Source of the DNA: a virus
Reading direction: 5' to 3' (one strand)
Virus record (IMG/VR): IMGVR_UViG_2044078006_000016
Coordinates: 762-64,761 of that record
Length of the DNA: 64,000 bases
In this document: positions 47,178-59,412 of the stretch, in pieces
Layout of the letters: each line of letters starts with the position of its first letter
Numbering within the stretch: the first letter of the stretch is position 1
Notes under the pieces: generated by a model
What the model saw: the letters and a program-made list of their open reading frames with translations, nothing else
Database searches by the model: none
Told to the model about the DNA's origin: nothing
Made by a program: the position numbers and the translations under genes

Positions 47178-47444
47178 ATGCACCACAGCATCCAATCACG
47201 CCGCGAAATTGTCGACGGTTTGCGTCAGCGCTCTCGCATCGCCACTGCCGACTTCTACCGGCTGATTGGACGGCCGGAGCCCGTGGTCCACTTCAGAATG
47301 ACGGTGAAGCCAGCGGGACGTGACTTCTTCCATGTGGTTGATACCCGGACCGACAAAGTGATGGGGTTCCGCCGCGATCACAACGAAGCCTGCGCGCTCG
47401 CCCGGAGCCTGGAGACTCGCCATGCCAACCAGCTACGCGGATAG
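47178..47444 (+). CDS. Early-left hypothetical (FHVVD..T.KV.GFR)
   Basis: GGAGG SD; paralogous to the truncated frame at 53862..54005. Confidence 0.7.
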   Translation: MHHSIQSRREIVDGLRQRSRIATADFYRLIGRPEPVVHFRMTVKPAGRDFFHVVDTRTDKVMGFRRDHNEACALARSLETRHANQLRG

Positions 47445-53753: not shown

Positions 53754-53806
53754 TCATCTCTAACTGCTTCAACAGAGACTAACTTTGGTTAAGCGAGGTT
53801 CCCCCT

Positions 53807-53866
53807 GTGTCCGCACAAAAAAATAAACACTCCTTCGATTTCAAAACCCAACACAGACTCGGGTAA
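53807..53866 (+). pseudogene. N-terminal stub of a prophage C5 cytosine methyltransferase (VSAQKNKHSFDFKTQHRLG*)
   Basis: GAGG SD + GTG; matches the KKHPFDFKTQYGLG N-terminus I recall for Pseudomonas prophage C5-MTases. Confidence 0.6.
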
Positions 53867-54001
53867 GGCCTACCACATCGTGGAGCGCTGCACCGGCAAG
53901 GTGAAGGGCTTCCGCTGGACCTGGAAGGAAGCAAGCAACCTGGCTCAGGCGCTGGAATCGCGAGCCGATGGCGTCAAGGTGACGCTCTCAGGTGGTGCGC
54001 A

Positions 54002-54316
54002 ATGATCGGCGTGCCTATGCCCAACCCGCGCGATTCGATCATCGACAACCTCAACCAGCAGTTGGAGGCGTTCTTCGGCTCCGGCAACAAGGCCCAGGAG
54101 ATCGCGCCGGGCGTCAGCGGCGAGGTGGGCGGGCCAATCAAAAGCACCCGCAGCAACAAGCTGCGTACCGAACGGGACAAGATCGCGCCAAGGCTGAAGC
54201 AACTCGTTGATTCTGGCGCCACGCTTCACCAGGCGTGCCTGGAGGCCGGCGTCGACTACAAGCGAGCCCGCCTCATTGCTCGCGAGAACGGCTTCAAACT
54301 CCCCAGCAATCCATGA
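54002..54316 (+). CDS. Hypothetical with C-terminal HTH-like segment
   Basis: 104 aa; ACLEAGVDYKRARLIARENG. Confidence 0.7.
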   Translation: MIGVPMPNPRDSIIDNLNQQLEAFFGSGNKAQEIAPGVSGEVGGPIKSTRSNKLRTERDKIAPRLKQLVDSGATLHQACLEAGVDYKRARLIARENGFKLPSNP

Positions 54317-54397
54317 AGCGCATCAATAACCAGGTGCGACAACGCCGGCGGCAGGCATGGCTTGATTTGCCAGCACATGAAATCGAAGAGGTAGGCC

Positions 54398-54763
54398 ATG
54401 GCCGAGGAAGAGCAGCAGACGACGGCGGAAGCCTTGAAGCAGCGCCGCAAGCGCGAGAAGGCAGCAGCGAAGGACGCTGCATTGGGCGTCGAGAAGTTTA
54501 CGGTTGAGGTGGTCGGGGTTTTCAAGAGCGATCTTCGCAATGTGATGAAGGCCCACAGCATCAACAATCAGCAGGACATCCACCAGAGGCTCCTTATAAA
54601 CCTGATCGGTGCCGACTTCGAAACTCAGGCGCAGATGCTCAAGTGTGTCACGACACCTTTTGTAGTTAGCGAAAAGGTGTCGCAACTAATTCGGGCAGCC
54701 GGCCTGAAGTCGCTCGCCGATGACCCGCCCGAGCATGAAGACGAAATCGCCATTCCAGAATGA
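54398..54763 (+). CDS. Early-left hypothetical (paralogue of 51543..52028)
   Basis: Same 18-bp leader GAAGAGGTAGGCCATGGC as 51543. Confidence 0.7.
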   Translation: MAEEEQQTTAEALKQRRKREKAAAKDAALGVEKFTVEVVGVFKSDLRNVMKAHSINNQQDIHQRLLINLIGADFETQAQMLKCVTTPFVVSEKVSQLIRAAGLKSLADDPPEHEDEIAIPE

Positions 54764-54765
54764 TT

Positions 54766-55500
54766 TCATGCAGCTGTTTCGTCATCCGAAGCGACTGGGG
54801 CAGCTATCTTTTTAGGTTCAATATGCTTGAAAACCTTCTTTGCGCGATAAGGAATTATGTATGTTCCGATCAGTATATGCTCAATGACCTCAAGGGCTAA
54901 GAGAAGCTGGCTTTTGGAGTGCGCTGTACCCCGATGCGCCGCGTTGTTTCCCAAAACCCGAATTTGGTGGAGCGTTTGGACTCCCTCTTTAGTTACTAGA
55001 GATCGCTCGTGTAGATCGTCGATCTTTTGCTCTAGGTTGCGGCCTTTGGCTTTCACATCAGAACAGATCGTGTCCAATATAGCTCTAATACCGATCCCGC
55101 TAATTATCAGAAGGTCACTATCTAGTGCGCTTCGCGCCTCTTGGTAGATCTCGCCTATGTCCAATGGCAGAGAAGCATGATCTATAATTTTGGAACCCAC
55201 TACTCGACCTGGATAATAGGTAACCGCCGAAATCCAATAGATATCACCTTCGTTATCATGATCCCAATCTTCAGAGTTTGATGACTCAACTCTGAAAGAG
55301 ATTTCTTCACACCCCAGGCACTGGATAATCTGATTGAAAGCGGTCCAGTCAAAAGTATGGCCGCCGCCGTAATCTTCAGAGCCTCTTTCAGTGTAGTTCG
55401 CCACCACCTTGTGGTTCGACTCAAGACAGCACTTCTTGCACGGAAACTTCTGAATTGACTCGTCTAAAGTCATTTCGAATTTTTTAGTAATCGGCGCCAT
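54766..55500 (-). CDS. Zn-ribbon + DUF4145 (HEPN) protein
   Basis: CKKC...CLGC N-terminus; EIY.EA...IRAILD.IC...L..KID.L...IRVLGN.AAH. Confidence 0.85.
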   Translation of the reverse strand: MAPITKKFEMTLDESIQKFPCKKCCLESNHKVVANYTERGSEDYGGGHTFDWTAFNQIIQCLGCEEISFRVESSNSEDWDHDNEGDIYWISAVTYYPGRVVGSKIIDHASLPLDIGEIYQEARSALDSDLLIISGIGIRAILDTICSDVKAKGRNLEQKIDDLHERSLVTKEGVQTLHQIRVLGNNAAHRGTAHSKSQLLLALEVIEHILIGTYIIPYRAKKVFKHIEPKKIAAPVASDDETAA

Positions 55501-55575
55501 CTGCGGTCCCTCGCTGTATTTGAAATACACAAATACCCCATATCAACGAATCACGCCAGCCGACGAGGATCCCCT

Positions 55576-56526
55576 ATGCCAACTCACAACATCGTCAGCA
55601 TGAGCGGCGGTAAAGACAGCACGGCTACGCTGCTGGTCGCCCGCGAGCTGGAGGTGCCGAACCTCAGCGCTGTAGTGGCTGACACCGGGCATGAGCATCC
55701 AGAGACGTACGACTACATCCACTATCTGGCTGAAGCCACTGGTGTTCCCATCCGGTGGGTGAAGGCAGACTTCTCCAAGCAGATCGCCGGCAAGCGCAAA
55801 TTCATCGAAACGAAATGGCGCGAAAAGGGTGTTGCGGAATCCGTGGTGCTGGGTGCCCTGGAAGTCCTTCACCCGACTGGCAACCCGTTCCTGGACCTGT
55901 GCCTGTGGAAAGGTCGATTCCCCAGCACCAAGGCACGCTTCTGCACCGACGAGCTCAAGCGCAATCCAATCATCGAGCAGGTTTACCTGCCGCTCATGGA
56001 CGGCGAGAACATGCTGCTTTCCTGGCAAGGCGTTCGGGCCGATGAGTCGCCGGCACGCCGGCACTTACCAGAGTGCGATGAGGTTGGAGGCGGCCTGTTC
56101 AACTACCGGCCCATCTTAAAGTGGACGGTTGATTCAGTCTTCGAGGCTCACCGGGTAGCCGGCATCAAGCCGAACCCGCTGTACTTGCAAGGCTGCAATC
56201 GCGTTGGCTGCATGCCCTGTATCATGTGTGCGAAAGACGAGCTCCGGCAGATCGCCGCCAGGTGGCCAGAGGAAGTTGACCGAGTGCGCGAATGGGAGCG
56301 ACTGGTGAGCATCGCCAGCAAGCGCGGAGCGGCTACGTTCTTCGCCACCGTCACCGACCCCACCGTGCGCTCAGATGACAAGGTGAGCGCCGTCACGCAT
56401 GGAATTGACAGGATCGTCGACTGGAGCAACACAGCGCGCGGCGGCCGCCAGTTCGACATGGTCGACCTCATCGCGCGCACCGACAGCCGGAAAAGCTGCT
56501 CATCCGCTTACGGGCTTTGCGAGTAA
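55576..56526 (+). CDS. PAPS-reductase-family (DndC-like PP-loop) protein
   Basis: SMSGGKDS PP-loop, DTG.EHPET, RFCT..LK, GVRA.ES..R, RVGC.PC..C cluster. Confidence 0.9.
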   Translation: MPTHNIVSMSGGKDSTATLLVARELEVPNLSAVVADTGHEHPETYDYIHYLAEATGVPIRWVKADFSKQIAGKRKFIETKWREKGVAESVVLGALEVLHPTGNPFLDLCLWKGRFPSTKARFCTDELKRNPIIEQVYLPLMDGENMLLSWQGVRADESPARRHLPECDEVGGGLFNYRPILKWTVDSVFEAHRVAGIKPNPLYLQGCNRVGCMPCIMCAKDELRQIAARWPEEVDRVREWERLVSIASKRGAATFFATVTDPTVRSDDKVSAVTHGIDRIVDWSNTARGGRQFDMVDLIARTDSRKSCSSAYGLCE

Positions 56527-56564
56527 GCCCGCTTCAAAGTCACTCCCGCTCGCGAGGATAAACC

Positions 56565-56669
56565 ATGCCCGATATCACCTACTGCTCTGTTTGCTCCGGC
56601 ATCGAAGCCGCGACATAGGCCTGGCACCCGCTGGGCATACGCGCCGCCTGGTTCGCCGAGATTGAGCCA
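56565..56669 (+). pseudogene. 5' fragment of a second C5 cytosine methyltransferase (CSGIEAA type) with nonsense codon
   Basis: GAGGA SD + ATG 56565: MPDITYCSVCSGIEAAT*AWHPLGIRAAWFAEIEP (SAM-binding motif I); TAG at 56616-18; homology stops just before the nuclease gene. Confidence 0.85.
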
Positions 56670-56749
56670 GCATTTCGCTATTGCGTCATCCGCCTGGGCG
56701 AGCGAGCATTGACTATCTGATTAATGCAGCTGCCCACAAGGACGTTTCT

Positions 56750-57850
56750 TTGAAAATCCCCGCGGTAAAAAAAGCAAAGCTGGACCAAGCTCTAAAACAG
56801 TTCGATGAAAAATTTCGCCACGCCCCCGAATGGAAGGGCTGGACTGAAAACCAAGCGCATCGCTACGCAATCAGCGCGAACAGCACTTTATACCCTGCAA
56901 AAAAAATAGTTTCTTTGGCCACTGGAACGCCGGTAGGACTGTTTTCAGGTGGTCAGCCCACAAACGGATATTTGAAGCGGCACGGATACACAATCGTTGA
57001 ACTGCAACGGTCAACTGATCCAGAGCTGCGCTTTGTGGCGGGTCAGGTTTATGACCGGCAAACTGAGATTCACGATTTGTTCGGAGGCAGTCGCCAGAGT
57101 GGAATTGCCCCCTCAGCGCAGGCCCCAGCGGTATTCATTTTCACCGGCGACTCAGGTGGTCAGTACGGATACACCGACTCTCATAGCGAGGAGCAGGTTT
57201 TCAGCTACACAGGCGAAGGCCAGCTCGGTGATATGACTCTGACTAAAGGAAACCTGGCAATTCTCGAGCACTCGAAGCAGGGGAAAGCACTGCATGTTTT
57301 CGAGATCCTCGGCAAAAGTTTAGGCCAGAAGTACCTCGGCGAATACACGTGTGCGAGCCATGAATGGCGCCGCGGCCCTGACAAGCTAGGCAACGACAGG
57401 GCAATAGTTGTGTTCAACCTAGTCCCTGTAGGGCTCGAGCTCGACCCCCCTACGTTCTCAGGAGAAGACGAAGCCCCAGATCCAACTATATCACTTGCCG
57501 AGGCGAGAAAGCGCGCTCTTGCGGCTGCGGAAGCAGGATCTGCTGGAGAGAGCGGATCGGCACGCAGAAGCGTATATCGTCGCAGCAGAACTATCTCTAC
57601 TTACGTTTTAAGAAGGGCTGCCGGGAATTGCGAGAGCTGTGAGAGGCCGGCCCCTTTCATTAAAACAAACGGGTCGCCATATCTAGAGCCGCACCACGTC
57701 AATCGACTATCAGATGGTGGCCTAGATCATCCACGTTACATAGGCGCTATCTGCCCGGCCTGCCACCGCGAAATCCATCACGGATTGAACGGAAAGGTTA
57801 AGAACGAAGCGTTGAAAACATACGTCGCCAGCATCGAGCCGAAGTCTTAA
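56750..57850 (+). CDS. ScoMcrA-like type IV (modification-dependent) restriction endonuclease: head + SRA + HNH
   Basis: SRA-like GGSRQSGIAPS...VF.FT...G.QYGY.D...F.YTGEGQ.GDM....GN.AI; McrA-type HNH CESC...YLEPHH...GG.D......CP.CHREIH; AAGGA SD + TTG 56750. Confidence 0.82.
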   Translation: MKIPAVKKAKLDQALKQFDEKFRHAPEWKGWTENQAHRYAISANSTLYPAKKIVSLATGTPVGLFSGGQPTNGYLKRHGYTIVELQRSTDPELRFVAGQVYDRQTEIHDLFGGSRQSGIAPSAQAPAVFIFTGDSGGQYGYTDSHSEEQVFSYTGEGQLGDMTLTKGNLAILEHSKQGKALHVFEILGKSLGQKYLGEYTCASHEWRRGPDKLGNDRAIVVFNLVPVGLELDPPTFSGEDEAPDPTISLAEARKRALAAAEAGSAGESGSARRSVYRRSRTISTYVLRRAAGNCESCERPAPFIKTNGSPYLEPHHVNRLSDGGLDHPRYIGAICPACHREIHHGLNGKVKNEALKTYVASIEPKS

Positions 57851-57889
57851 CGGCTTCCGAATCAACAGGGCGCCGCCTGGAACTCCAGA

Positions 57890-58178
57890 GTGGCACCATG
57901 ACAATCCCTGACCGATGGCCCTGGTCACCGTGATGGTGAAAGGCACGCCCTACCTTATCGTCGACATCTGCCTGCGGATGCTGAAGCCGGCCGAGCTGTA
58001 CAAGGCCCAGGGATTCCCCGCCGACTACATCATCAGCCACGGCGCCGACGGCAAGCCGTTCACGAAGACCCAACAGGTGCAGGTGTGCGGCAAGAGTGTC
58101 AGCCCGCCGCCGATGCCGGCGCTGGCGCGGGCCAAGGACCCATGGCGCGCCGAACAACGCCAAGCACATGCGGCTTGA
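57890..58178 (+). pseudogene. 3' fragment of a C5 cytosine methyltransferase
   Basis: IVDICLRML.P.ELYKAQGFP.DYII...TKTQQV..CG.SVSPP (motifs IX-X; the usual GNSV is GKSV); no SAM or catalytic motifs upstream. Confidence 0.85.
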
Positions 58179-58298: not shown

Positions 58299-58434
58299 CG
58301 CTATGTCCTCTGGGTGGTAGCTGTTCGGCACCTGGTGGAATCAGCAGTTCAAATCAATCAACTCCACCGCCCGGGCATGGCCCGGGAAGGACTCCCCATT
58401 CCAACTTTCTGCTCGCACCGGCCATATGCCACTC

Positions 58435-59412
58435 TTACTCTAGGCATGGGTTTGACCTGTATCCATCCTTAAACCCGCCACTCAGGCTTACCCTCTGTGG
58501 CTTTGCATCTCCCCCAATAAGCATCCCTGATCGTATACACGTAGATGCGAAGATAATTTCGGATTTATGCACCTGACCATCGACATCAACTGCAGTAATA
58601 TTTGCAATTAAGTACGCCGCCAGAGGCTGTGGAATAGCCGGAGATATGTCGATAACCGAAGTAATCGTGTCGAGCACCCTCATCTCGCCTTTGGCAAGTA
58701 AAAATGGAGGACCTTGTACTAATCCACGGGAGTCTGCTGGGTAGCTTTTACCTGGATCGTCCCCAAAGGAAATAGAAATTTGAACTTGCGATATTAAATA
58801 TGGCAGATTTCCACCGTTGGAAAAGACGAACTTTGCCGATACTGCCTTCCCGCCGTCTTCGGTCATATCACTCTCAACGAGTCTAAATAGCAATGAGTCC
58901 TTTGTTTCGACCGTGGAAAAATATGTAAGAACAGAGACAGCAAGTGCAACTATGCCAATCAAAGTACCACTGAGACCTGTCAGGGCTGTAAACCAAGCAG
59001 TTACCGTTTCTCTACGATGTCTCTTAGACTCACGAATTATTGCGATTGCCGCGTGTTCACCGGCTCTGGACAGACACAATTCACTCTGCTGAGTTATTCC
59101 ACTTTCTACTTCTTCCCATAACTCTTTATCAGACGGATCAGGCATAGGCATAGATAGCTCTTCAACTAATCTCCTGTAATTTTCAGTAATCAACAACCTC
59201 CGATCTTGATTAAGATCTGACATCTCGCAGTAGTAATTGTAATGGAGACCGTGGTCATGAGCCTCTTGAGTGTTTGGAGGCCTACCGGCCCGGATCTTTG
59301 CCTCAAGCTCATCAAGCGCCCTTAGCTGCGCCTTGAAAATCCTAGAGGCTGGCAACAACGCCTTTAATTGTTTACGAAACACCAGATAAGTCCATTTGTG
59401 GTTTTTTTGCAC
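58435..59412 (-). CDS. Single-pass membrane protein, AT-rich moron
   Basis: Helical N-domain, TM WFTALTGLSGTLIGIVALAVSVLTYF, beta-rich C-domain. Confidence 0.7.
   Translation of the reverse strand: MQKNHKWTYLVFRKQLKALLPASRIFKAQLRALDELEAKIRAGRPPNTQEAHDHGLHYNYYCEMSDLNQDRRLLITENYRRLVEELSMPMPDPSDKELWEEVESGITQQSELCLSRAGEHAAIAIIRESKRHRRETVTAWFTALTGLSGTLIGIVALAVSVLTYFSTVETKDSLLFRLVESDMTEDGGKAVSAKFVFSNGGNLPYLISQVQISISFGDDPGKSYPADSRGLVQGPPFLLAKGEMRVLDTITSVIDISPAIPQPLAAYLIANITAVDVDGQVHKSEIIFASTCIRSGMLIGGDAKPQRVSLSGGFKDGYRSNPCLE

What the first reader, a model, noticed from the sequence alone, without database searches (positions are those of the whole stretch)
53807..58178. A 5mC-reading SRA-HNH restriction nuclease sits exactly where the phage's cytosine methyltransferases were destroyed
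The intact ScoMcrA-like gene (56750..57850) is flanked immediately by the 5' fragment of one C5-MTase (56565..56669, motif I, with a TAG) and the 3' fragment of another (57890..58178). A third stub lies at 53807. SRA domains are established 5mC/5hmC readers, so an active MTase would be self-lethal. The prophage appears to have switched strategy from methylating itself to restricting methylated rivals, including relatives that still carry these MTases. The protein seems to go straight from head domain to SRA, lacking the sulfur-binding domain of ScoMcrA, which would spare any phosphorothioate-like mark made by the neighbouring DndC-like enzyme. The HNH keeps HH and CHREIH but lacks the usual Asn residues.
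Basis: partly seen in the sequence, partly recalled or inferred. Interest (0 to 1): 0.85.

Follow-up and report, generated by a model that had tools for sequence, protein, structure and literature searches.

The report
Methyl-cytosine nuclease replacing prophage methyltransferases
A Pseudomonas prophage carries an intact nuclease of a known kind that cuts cytosine-methylated DNA, sitting inside the wreckage of two cytosine-methyltransferase genes, and across relatives the nuclease and such methyltransferases tend to exclude each other.

Summary
Gene 56750-57850 encodes an intact 366-aa protein with three domains: a ScoMcrA-type head, an SRA domain and an HNH nuclease. It has no sulfur-binding domain. 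The model is confident (pLDDT 91.6), and the SRA domain matches the ScoMcrA, TagI and SUVH5 SRA domains at Z 12-14.

Three real C5-methyltransferase relics lie around it:
- a P1-Dmt-like 5' stub (56565-56669, with CAG changed to TAG);
- an F116-type 3' remnant (57916-58174);
- an F116-type 5' stub (53793-53862).

Relatives carry intact methyltransferases in this same slot after the PAPS-reductase gene. The stub/nuclease junction is the same in about 14 related proviruses, so it arose once and now moves as a module.

None of 18 nuclease-bearing proviruses has an intact C5-methyltransferase, against 28 of 50 relatives without the nuclease. Among 401 Pseudomonas genomes, 4 of 23 with an intact homologue have one, against 187 of 368 with no match. 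All 5 genomes with a broken homologue have one.

The likeliest reading is an active 5mC/5hmC-directed type IV restriction gene used for exclusion, incompatible with the lost methyltransferases. It is a new member of a known family and a clean natural case of a known conflict. The phosphorothioate argument is unsupported, and exclusion is not absolute.

The parts
53793..53862 (+). 5' stub of an F116-type C5-methyltransferase gene: ribosome-binding region plus 19 codons from GTG 53807. TAA follows at 53864.
   Evidence: 84-88% DNA identity to the starts of intact F116-type genes in L022, L024, L031, L032, L043, L057 and L064. tblastn of the 19 aa hits those start codons.
53862..54005 (+). Chimeric junction. 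The methyltransferase stub is joined to the headless 3' half of a paralogue of gene 47178-47444.
   Evidence: BLASTP 48% identity over 31 aa to residues 51-81 of the 88-aa product. phrog_6742 positions 47-88 of 91. Homology to L011, L013 and L081 starts exactly at 53862.
54766..55530 (-). DUF4145 gene, a neighbouring candidate defence gene inside the inserted segment.
   Evidence: Pfam DUF4145 E 9e-18. PADLOC PD-T7-4 E 1.8e-11.
55527..55578 (+). Short conserved boundary sequence with the ribosome-binding site upstream of the PAPS-reductase gene. It recurs at other cassette borders in relatives.
   Evidence: 88-100% matches at second positions in L017, L018, L033, L036, L039, L058, L062 and L064. 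Sequence.
55576..56526 (+). PAPS-reductase-like gene. It is the conserved left neighbour of the variable methyltransferase/nuclease slot.
   Evidence: Pfam PAPS_reduct E 4e-24. phrog_424 E 5e-74. 62 related provirus loci.
56565..56669 (+). 5' stub (35 codons, motif I region) of a P1-Dmt-like C5-methyltransferase, with TAG at 56616-56618. A decaying pseudogene fragment.
   Evidence: The junction is the same in about 14 proviruses. Lineage-specific changes are spread evenly over codon positions (21, 21, 17).
56670..56749 (+). Spacer that always travels with the nuclease gene. It holds the AAGGA ribosome-binding site.
   Evidence: 73-98% identity across relatives. Alignment.
56750..57850 (+). Intact ScoMcrA_N-SRA-HNH gene (366 aa). 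Head domain is about residues 1-90, SRA 92-231 (57023-57442), HNH 249-366 (57494-57847).
57916..58174 (+). 3' remnant of an F116-type C5-methyltransferase (residues about 601-687). It lacks all catalytic motifs before motif X.
   Evidence: Remnant length varies from 0 to about 280 bases among relatives.
58361..58405 (+). Conserved boundary element with a CCCGGGC...GCCCGGG hairpin. It marks the right edge of the slot in many relatives.
   Evidence: 86-97% matches in at least 15 loci, directly after the slot's cargo.

Best explanation
Gene 56750-57850 encodes an active type IV (modification-dependent) restriction nuclease of the SRA-HNH family. Its SRA domain would flip out and bind 5-methyl- or 5-hydroxymethyl-cytosine, and its dimeric HNH domain would cut nearby.

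Carried by a prophage, it would exclude incoming phages and plasmids whose DNA is cytosine-methylated. That includes relatives that still carry the C5-methyltransferases normally kept in this slot.

The nuclease arrived as a ready-made module: methyltransferase 5' stub, spacer, nuclease gene and F116-type 3' remnant. Recombination at module borders brought it in. In this prophage the incoming segment also removed codons 20 to about 600 of a resident F116-type methyltransferase.

A genome that expresses the nuclease cannot also express a C5-methyltransferase with an overlapping target, so the two behave as alternative alleles of one locus.

Shown: the domain architecture, the relics, the shared junction, purifying selection, and the anticorrelation. 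Inferred: catalytic activity, 5mC/5hmC dependence, expression in the lysogen, and the selective link.
For: Architecture:
- The AF2 model has pLDDT 91.6 and pTM 0.88.
- Foldseek's top hit is ScoMcrA at E 5e-16.
- Residues 92-231 match the ScoMcrA SRA domain (Z 14.0, rmsd 2.8), SUVH5 SRA bound to methylated DNA (Z 13.5) and TagI (Z 12.0).
- The HNH profile matches EcoKMcrA at E 6e-34.
- PADLOC assigns it to mREase_IV.
- Homologues carry Pfam SRA_ScoMcrA and, weakly, ScoMcrA_N.

Conserved residues: H315, H316, H339, H343, C294 and P336 are invariant, C297 and C338 nearly so, and the Y141/D143/G155-E156-G157 motif is invariant or nearly so.

Selection: the gene is open in 17 of 17 related proviruses. 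Identity at codon positions 1+2 is 76-98%, against 34-89% at position 3.

Slot: intact methyltransferases of three types follow the PAPS-reductase gene in relatives.

Anticorrelation:
- Proviruses: 0/18 against 28/50 (p 1.1e-5); among records at least 90% complete, 0/11 against 13/27 (p 0.006).
- Genomes: 4/23 against 187/368 (p 0.002).
- Broken copies: 5/5 have a C5-methyltransferase (p 0.0013).
- The provirus has no N6/N4 methyltransferase either.

Literature:
- SRA-HNH enzymes cut 5mC/5hmC DNA (PMC4333417, PMC6212794, PMC7461809).
- Methyl-specific nucleases kill cells that acquire a methyltransferase (PMC2614495, PMC2993543).
Against: - No biochemical or expression evidence exists, and no promoter-like site was found upstream.
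- The canonical middle Asn of the HNH motif is Tyr here. In TagI, the Asn was judged essential from conservation and mutagenesis (PMC6212794).
- Four genomes hold an intact homologue plus an intact small C5-methyltransferase.
- 22 of 50 relatives have neither gene, so the slot is variable for other reasons too.
- The statistics are not corrected for shared ancestry.
- Part of the exclusion among proviruses follows trivially from the two cargos sharing one slot.
- The host genome of this provirus is not available.
Confidence: 0.7

Rival explanations
1. Ordinary mosaicism with no selective link. The slot after the PAPS-reductase gene is a hypervariable cargo site bounded by short conserved sequences. 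The nuclease is one cargo among many, and the methyltransferase fragments are neutral recombination scars.
For: - Short boundary elements recur at cassette borders.
- 22 of 50 relatives carry neither a methyltransferase nor the nuclease.
- Another truncated type-A stub with different cargo occurs in L081/L082.
- The 53862 junction also beheads an unrelated small gene.
- Window against L011 shows a module-border breakpoint at about 56490-56540.
Against: - The anticorrelation extends to whole host genomes, where the chromosomal homologue lies in a different locus.
- Every genome with a broken homologue has a C5-methyltransferase.
- No nuclease-bearing provirus has a C5-methyltransferase anywhere in its record.
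Confidence: 0.15
2. The protein is a real family member but is catalytically dead, or works only as a modified-DNA binder. The cause would be the loss of the canonical HNH Asn (Y330) and the CPNC to CPAC change.
For: - Y330 aligns with the Asn of EcoKMcrA and ScoMcrA.
- The TagI paper lists the HNH His, Asn and His as essential.
Against: - That position is aromatic or variable in most of the 66 aligned family members and Asn in only a minority.
- The general-base and metal-binding His residues are invariant and the Zn cysteines invariant or nearly so.
- The gene is under strong purifying selection along its whole length.
- According to the TagI paper, the Asn has no catalytic role.
Confidence: 0.08
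3. The nuclease is active but reads a different mark, such as 5hmC only, another modified pyrimidine, or a narrow sequence context. In that case it would not conflict with the particular methyltransferases whose relics flank it.
For: - ScoMcrA prefers 5hmC, and TagI slightly prefers 5hmC (PMC7461809, PMC6212794).
- Four genomes tolerate an intact homologue with a small C5-methyltransferase.
Against: Depletion of C5-methyltransferases in genomes with intact copies, and their presence in all genomes with broken copies, fit a 5mC reader best.
Confidence: 0.07

Closest known systems
TagI / ScoA3IV / TbiR51I SRA-HNH modification-dependent restriction endonucleases (PMC4333417, PMC6212794)
   Same: [quoted passage not shown] SRA fold Z 12.0 to TagI. 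The Tyr/Asp/Tyr-type pocket motif is conserved.
   Different: - It has an extra ~90-aa ScoMcrA_N head domain that TagI lacks.
- The middle Asn of HNH is Tyr.
- Sequence similarity to TagI is marginal (profile E 0.085).
- It is Pseudomonas- and prophage-borne.
- Its activity has not been tested.
ScoMcrA (Sco4631; PDB 5zmm/5zmn), head-SBD-SRA-HNH
   Same: Best structural and sequence match. SRA residues 92-185 align to ScoMcrA 258-348 and HNH 241-351 to 429-543. Foldseek E 5e-16. The head domain shows the same motif pattern and a weak Pfam ScoMcrA_N hit on homologues.
   Different: The ~150-aa sulfur-binding domain is missing: the SRA domain starts at residue 92 here, against 257 in ScoMcrA. Phosphorothioate dependence is therefore not expected.
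EcoKMcrA of the defective prophage e14 of E. coli K-12 (PDB 6ghc)
   Same: A 5mC/5hmC-dependent HNH restriction enzyme. That its gene lies on prophage e14 is from my own knowledge, not checked here. The HNH domains are closely alike (E 6e-18 single sequence, 6e-34 profile; 38-40% identity).
   Different: The sensor domain is the unrelated NEco fold, which reads the base without flipping it (PMC7145662). Here the sensor is an SRA domain.
Epigenetic conflict between methyl-specific nucleases and incoming methyltransferases (McrBC, PMC2614495, PMC2993543; PcaRCI/PcaRCII, PMC8989522)
   Same: A methylation-dependent nuclease and a cytosine methyltransferase cannot both be active in one cell. The conflict is resolved by loss or silencing of one partner.
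   Different: In this case the resolution is recorded in a prophage locus: the nuclease gene physically lies between methyltransferase relics. The known cases are chromosomal or experimental.

Membership tests
SRA-HNH modification-dependent restriction endonucleases | SRA (SAD/SRA, PUA-like) fold in the sensor domain | tested here: met
   Residues 92-231 match ScoMcrA SRA (Z 14.0, rmsd 2.8 over 132 residues), SUVH5 SRA-5mC DNA complexes (Z 13.0-13.5) and TagI (Z 12.0). Pfam SAD_SRA is below its cut-off (18.6 against 30.7 bits). Homologues carry PF26348 SRA_ScoMcrA.
SRA-HNH modification-dependent restriction endonucleases | Pocket for the flipped base lined by two Tyr residues and an acidic residue (TagI Y55, D58, Y67) | tested here: inconclusive
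   Y141 and D143 are at least 90% conserved and G155/G157 are invariant. Y153 lies in the conserved YTGEG motif, 12 residues after Y141 as in TagI. No residue-level structural superposition could be made.
SRA-HNH modification-dependent restriction endonucleases | C-terminal HNH (beta-beta-alpha-Me) domain with a general-base His, a metal-binding His and a structural Zn site | tested here: met
   H315/H316, H339, H343 and C294 are invariant; C297 and C338 are at least 90% conserved; C335 is usually Cys. Profile match to EcoKMcrA HNH at E 6e-34.
SRA-HNH modification-dependent restriction endonucleases | Canonical middle Asn of the H-N-H motif | tested here: not met
   Y330 aligns with the Asn of EcoKMcrA and ScoMcrA. 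The position is variable across the family and mostly aromatic. It is described as structural, not catalytic (PMC6212794).
SRA-HNH modification-dependent restriction endonucleases | Cleavage that depends on 5mC/5hmC in the substrate | not testable with these tools
   Only indirect evidence: depletion of C5-methyltransferases where the gene is intact.
ScoMcrA-type phosphorothioate-dependent enzymes (SBD-SRA-HNH) | Sulfur-binding domain between the head and SRA domains | tested here: not met
   The SRA domain begins at residue 92, and only about 90 residues precede it. ScoMcrA residues of about 100-256 have no counterpart.
ScoMcrA-type phosphorothioate-dependent enzymes (SBD-SRA-HNH) | N-terminal head domain (Pfam ScoMcrA_N) | tested here: inconclusive
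   Weak precomputed PF26345 hits on 55-58% identical homologues. The profile alignment to ScoMcrA residues 14-94 is not significant, but it shows the same motif order.
C5 cytosine DNA methyltransferase (PF00145), for the three fragments | Complete set of motifs, including the catalytic Pro-Cys motif IV, in one open frame | tested here: not met
   Only model positions 270-320 are found in the whole provirus record. The type-A stub has 35 codons with an internal TAG. The F116-type stub has 19 codons. All three are gene fragments.

The most novel reading that the evidence does not exclude
The module (methyltransferase stub, nuclease gene, methyltransferase remnant) could act as a selfish element that hunts methyltransferases. 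The nuclease would cut only genomes that the rival allele, an intact C5-methyltransferase, has methylated. Repair of those breaks on the unmethylated prophage copy would then convert the methyltransferase allele into the nuclease allele, using the retained methyltransferase-gene homology and the adjacent conserved PAPS-reductase gene. This would be a homing-like drive whose target is recognised through its methylation rather than its sequence.

The evidence does not exclude this:
- one junction is shared by all copies;
- the L008 stub matches a different methyltransferase allele (83% against 73%);
- polymorphisms shared with intact genes are enriched at third codon positions;
- in this window a second, F116-type methyltransferase was gutted by the incoming segment.

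All of these also fit ordinary mosaic recombination.
Probability: 0.1. Interest if true: 0.85.

Novelty: new member of a known kind. Interest (0 to 1): 0.45.

Why it matters
The enzyme family and the nuclease/methyltransferase conflict are both established. This locus adds a record in natural DNA of how the conflict is resolved inside temperate phages. The same slot holds either a cytosine methyltransferase, which protects the phage from restriction, or a nuclease that destroys cytosine-methylated DNA. The nuclease allele still carries pieces of the genes it displaced.

The locus also supplies a ready experimental system: closely related Pseudomonas prophages that differ mainly in this slot. 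With them one could ask whether prophage-borne type IV enzymes exclude methylating relatives. One could also ask whether such cassettes spread at the expense of methyltransferase alleles.

The head-SRA-HNH architecture without a sulfur-binding domain is common in Pseudomonas: 33 of 401 species genomes gave a match, 23 of them intact close homologues. I found no characterised member of this architecture in the papers I read.

Tried and rejected
- Pfam alone gave only sub-threshold HNH and SAD_SRA hits. NCBIfam gave nothing useful. The local Pfam copy lacks PF26345 and PF26348.
- The genome search 'relatives' is not available for a virus record, so this provirus's host genome could not be examined.
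- I first read the stub at 53807 as spurious from its translation. DNA comparison reversed that reading.
- I considered that the type-A stub might be conserved as a promoter or as a translated leader. The promoter scan found nothing upstream of the nuclease gene. Stops and frameshifts fall at different places in different relatives, and lineage-specific changes show no codon periodicity. It is therefore a decaying pseudogene fragment.
- I considered that the 325-aa minus-strand gene 58435-59412 might be a partner of the nuclease, because a 328-aa gene lies next to the chromosomal homologues. They are not homologous.
- A genome-contig scan with the single protein found only five loci. The genus-wide search replaced it.
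- A residue-level comparison with TagI failed, because TagI is too distant for phmmer.
- No complex prediction was attempted, since nothing in the report claims a protein partner.


Full report
**What the window is.** The window is almost the whole of a 65-kb IMG/VR provirus record. The best protein match of the gene in question is 97% identical to a Pseudomonas moraviensis protein, and related proviruses and genomes are all Pseudomonas. The region lies in the early arm, downstream of a YqaJ-type exonuclease gene.

**The nuclease gene.**
- ORF 56681-57850 is open. The likely start is TTG 56750, preceded by AAGGA and a 7-base spacer. Chromosomal homologues of 365 aa start at the equivalent residue.
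- Pfam gives only sub-threshold HNH and SAD_SRA hits, but stronger evidence agrees.
  - By sequence, phmmer finds EcoKMcrA (HNH, E 6e-18) and ScoMcrA (SRA residues 258-348 and HNH 429-543).
  - PADLOC calls it a type IV methyl-directed restriction enzyme.
  - PHROG 15103 covers residues 91-366.
  - Homologues carry the newer Pfam families SRA_ScoMcrA and, weakly, ScoMcrA_N.
- An AlphaFold model built on 66 homologues is confident (pLDDT 91.6, pTM 0.88). Foldseek ranks ScoMcrA first (E 5e-16), followed by TagI, EcoKMcrA and plant SUVH5 SRA domains bound to methylated DNA.
- VIA-align delimits the SRA domain as residues 92-231. It scores Z 14.0 to the ScoMcrA SRA domain, 13.5 to SUVH5 and 12.0 to TagI. 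The HNH domain is residues 249-366.
- Only about 90 residues precede the SRA domain, against 256 in ScoMcrA, so the sulfur-binding domain is absent.
- The head domain shows the same motif order as the ScoMcrA head, but the profile match is not significant.

**Is it likely to be active?**
- Invariant or nearly invariant residues across 66 family members include the HH pair (315, 316), H339, H343 and the Zn cysteines. In the SRA part they include Y141, D143 and the YTGEG motif. These residues fit the Tyr/Asp/Tyr pocket described for TagI.
That position is aromatic or variable in most of the family. The TagI paper describes the Asn as structural rather than catalytic.
- The gene is open in all 17 related proviruses.
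- Identity at codon positions 1+2 is 76-98%, while at position 3 it falls to 34-89%. That pattern is strong purifying selection.
- Activity and modification dependence remain inferred.

**The methyltransferase relics.**
- *Type-A 5' stub.* 56565-56669 is the first 35 codons of a P1-Dmt-like C5-methyltransferase, with CAG changed to TAG at 56616. Intact genes of 448-620 aa with the same N-terminus follow the PAPS-reductase gene in L021, L025, L049, L052, L056 and L058. Homology to the window ends exactly after the EIEP motif.
- *F116-type 3' remnant.* 57916-58174 is the last ~85 codons of an F116-type methyltransferase: 78-80% aa identity to F116/phiC725A and 88% DNA identity to L022. In phage phiC725A the gene order is PAPS-reductase-like gene, this 687-aa methyltransferase, then Dam.
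- *F116-type 5' stub.* 53793-53862 is the ribosome-binding site and first 19 codons of an F116-type gene, 84-88% identical to eight intact starts.
- *Chimeric junction.* At 53862 the F116-type stub is fused to the headless 3' half of a paralogue of gene 47178-47444.
- The provirus has no other C5, N6 or N4 methyltransferase.

**History of the module.**
- In about 14 of the 17 nuclease-bearing proviruses, the type-A stub lies at the same distance upstream of the nuclease gene and has the same junction. This holds even where the upstream genes differ. The junction therefore arose once.
- The stub decays. Stops and frameshifts differ between lineages. Lineage-specific substitutions are spread evenly over codon positions (21, 21, 17).
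- Each stub is closer to the intact L021/L056 gene (90-93%) than to other stubs (88% or less), which is a star-like pattern of decay.
- The L008 stub matches a different allele, the L058 type (83% against 73%). Polymorphisms shared with intact genes are enriched at third codon positions (12, 10, 25). Some recombination with intact methyltransferase genes has therefore occurred.
- The window is about 92% identical to L011 through the PAPS-reductase gene. Identity then falls to about 75% from around 56490 onward, so the stub-plus-nuclease module is exchanged at the gene border.
- The F116-type remnant shares its junction in the window, L003, L008 and L009. It is shorter or absent elsewhere, ranging from 0 to 280 bases.
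- Short conserved sequences at 55527-55578 and 58361-58405 recur at cassette borders.
- Chromosomal homologues (57-59% identity) lie in a different island and have no stub.
- The simplest account for this window has three steps.
  1. A prophage with an intact F116-type methyltransferase at 53807 recombined with a phage carrying the nuclease module.
  2. On the left the join was illegitimate, at codon 19.
  3. On the right it was homologous, in or beyond the remnant. This removed the methyltransferase body.

- Whole-record searches with PF00145 found no intact C5-methyltransferase in any of the 18 nuclease-bearing proviruses; only C-terminal remnants appeared.
- In contrast, 28 of 50 PAPS-reductase-bearing relatives without the nuclease have one. 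Fisher p is 1.1e-5. For records at least 90% complete the counts are 0/11 against 13/27, p 0.006.
- Part of this result is trivial, because both cargos use one slot. I therefore also searched 401 Pseudomonas species genomes.
  - Of 23 genomes with an intact close homologue, 4 have a C5-methyltransferase.
  - Of 368 genomes with no match, 187 have one (p 0.002).
  - All 5 genomes with a broken or truncated homologue have one (p 0.0013 against intact).
- The four exceptions all carry the same small prophage-type enzyme of 312-390 aa.
- A further genome, with a homologue truncated after residue ~186 and altered pocket residues, has three C5-methyltransferases.
- These counts are not corrected for shared ancestry. 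Co-existence by silencing has been described (PMC8989522).

**What is not supported.**
- The PAPS-reductase-like protein matches PAPS_reduct, and SspD/BrxP more than DndC. I did not look for DndA, DndD, DndE or Ssp partner genes. Nothing shows that it makes a phosphorothioate mark, so the argument about sparing such a mark is speculation.
- No promoter-like site was found for the nuclease gene, so expression in the lysogen is unknown.

**Comparison with what is known.**
- SRA-HNH enzymes (TagI, ScoA3IV, TbiR51I) and ScoMcrA are characterised 5mC/5hmC-directed nucleases (PMC4333417, PMC6212794, PMC7461809).
- EcoKMcrA is a prophage-borne 5mC-dependent HNH enzyme. Its e14 prophage location is from my own knowledge and was not checked here.
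- The lethal conflict between methyl-specific nucleases and methyltransferases is established (PMC2614495, PMC2993543).
- This gene is therefore a new, uncharacterised member of a known family. The locus is a clear natural example of a known conflict, recorded as a nuclease gene lying between the remains of two methyltransferase genes.

**Verdict.** Interest is moderate.

Noticed in passing
window 54766-55530 (-): The DUF4145 gene, antisense to the operon, matches the PD-T7-4 defence model (E 1.8e-11) and phrog_1305. It is a second candidate defence gene inside the same inserted segment.
   Followed up: partly
window 58435-59412 (-): A 325-aa gene with no Pfam match (phrog_19471 over residues 33-156) is inserted between the conserved boundary element at 58361-58405 and gene 59433. 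In L022 those two features are directly adjacent. It looks like another moron insertion.
   Followed up: partly
window 55527-55578 and 58361-58405: Short sequences of about 45-50 bases, one with a CCCGGGC/GCCCGGG hairpin, recur at 86-100% identity at the borders of different cassettes in many related proviruses. They are probably the recombination and linker sequences that make this slot modular.
   Followed up: partly
L081/L082:6856-7080: A second kind of truncated type-A methyltransferase: 75 codons, then unrelated sequence and different cargo. The same gene has therefore been broken at another point in another lineage.
   Followed up: no
G162:C12:129355-134463: In one Pseudomonas genome, an HNH-only fragment of the nuclease (residues 211-363) lies about 3 kb from an intact 574-aa C5-methyltransferase. 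This may be the reverse outcome of the same conflict.
   Followed up: no
L094:3001-3560: The homologue in a P. viridiflava isolate stops after residue ~186 and has changes in the conserved SRA motifs (YGYTD to YGYTA, YTGEG to YAGKG). A different HNH gene follows in another frame. That genome has three C5-methyltransferases.
   Followed up: partly
L083-L089 (chromosomal homologues): The 57-59% identical chromosomal clade lies in a small island between a TauE/DUF6933 region and the ribonucleotide-reductase small-subunit gene. It is next to a Bro-N gene and, in some strains, next to an S-type pyocin with immunity genes.
   Followed up: no
window 55576-56526: The PAPS-reductase-like protein matches only positions 160-420 of the 460-position phrog_424 profile. 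It therefore lacks the N-terminal ~160 residues present in longer phage versions, such as the 476-aa phiC725A protein.
   Followed up: no
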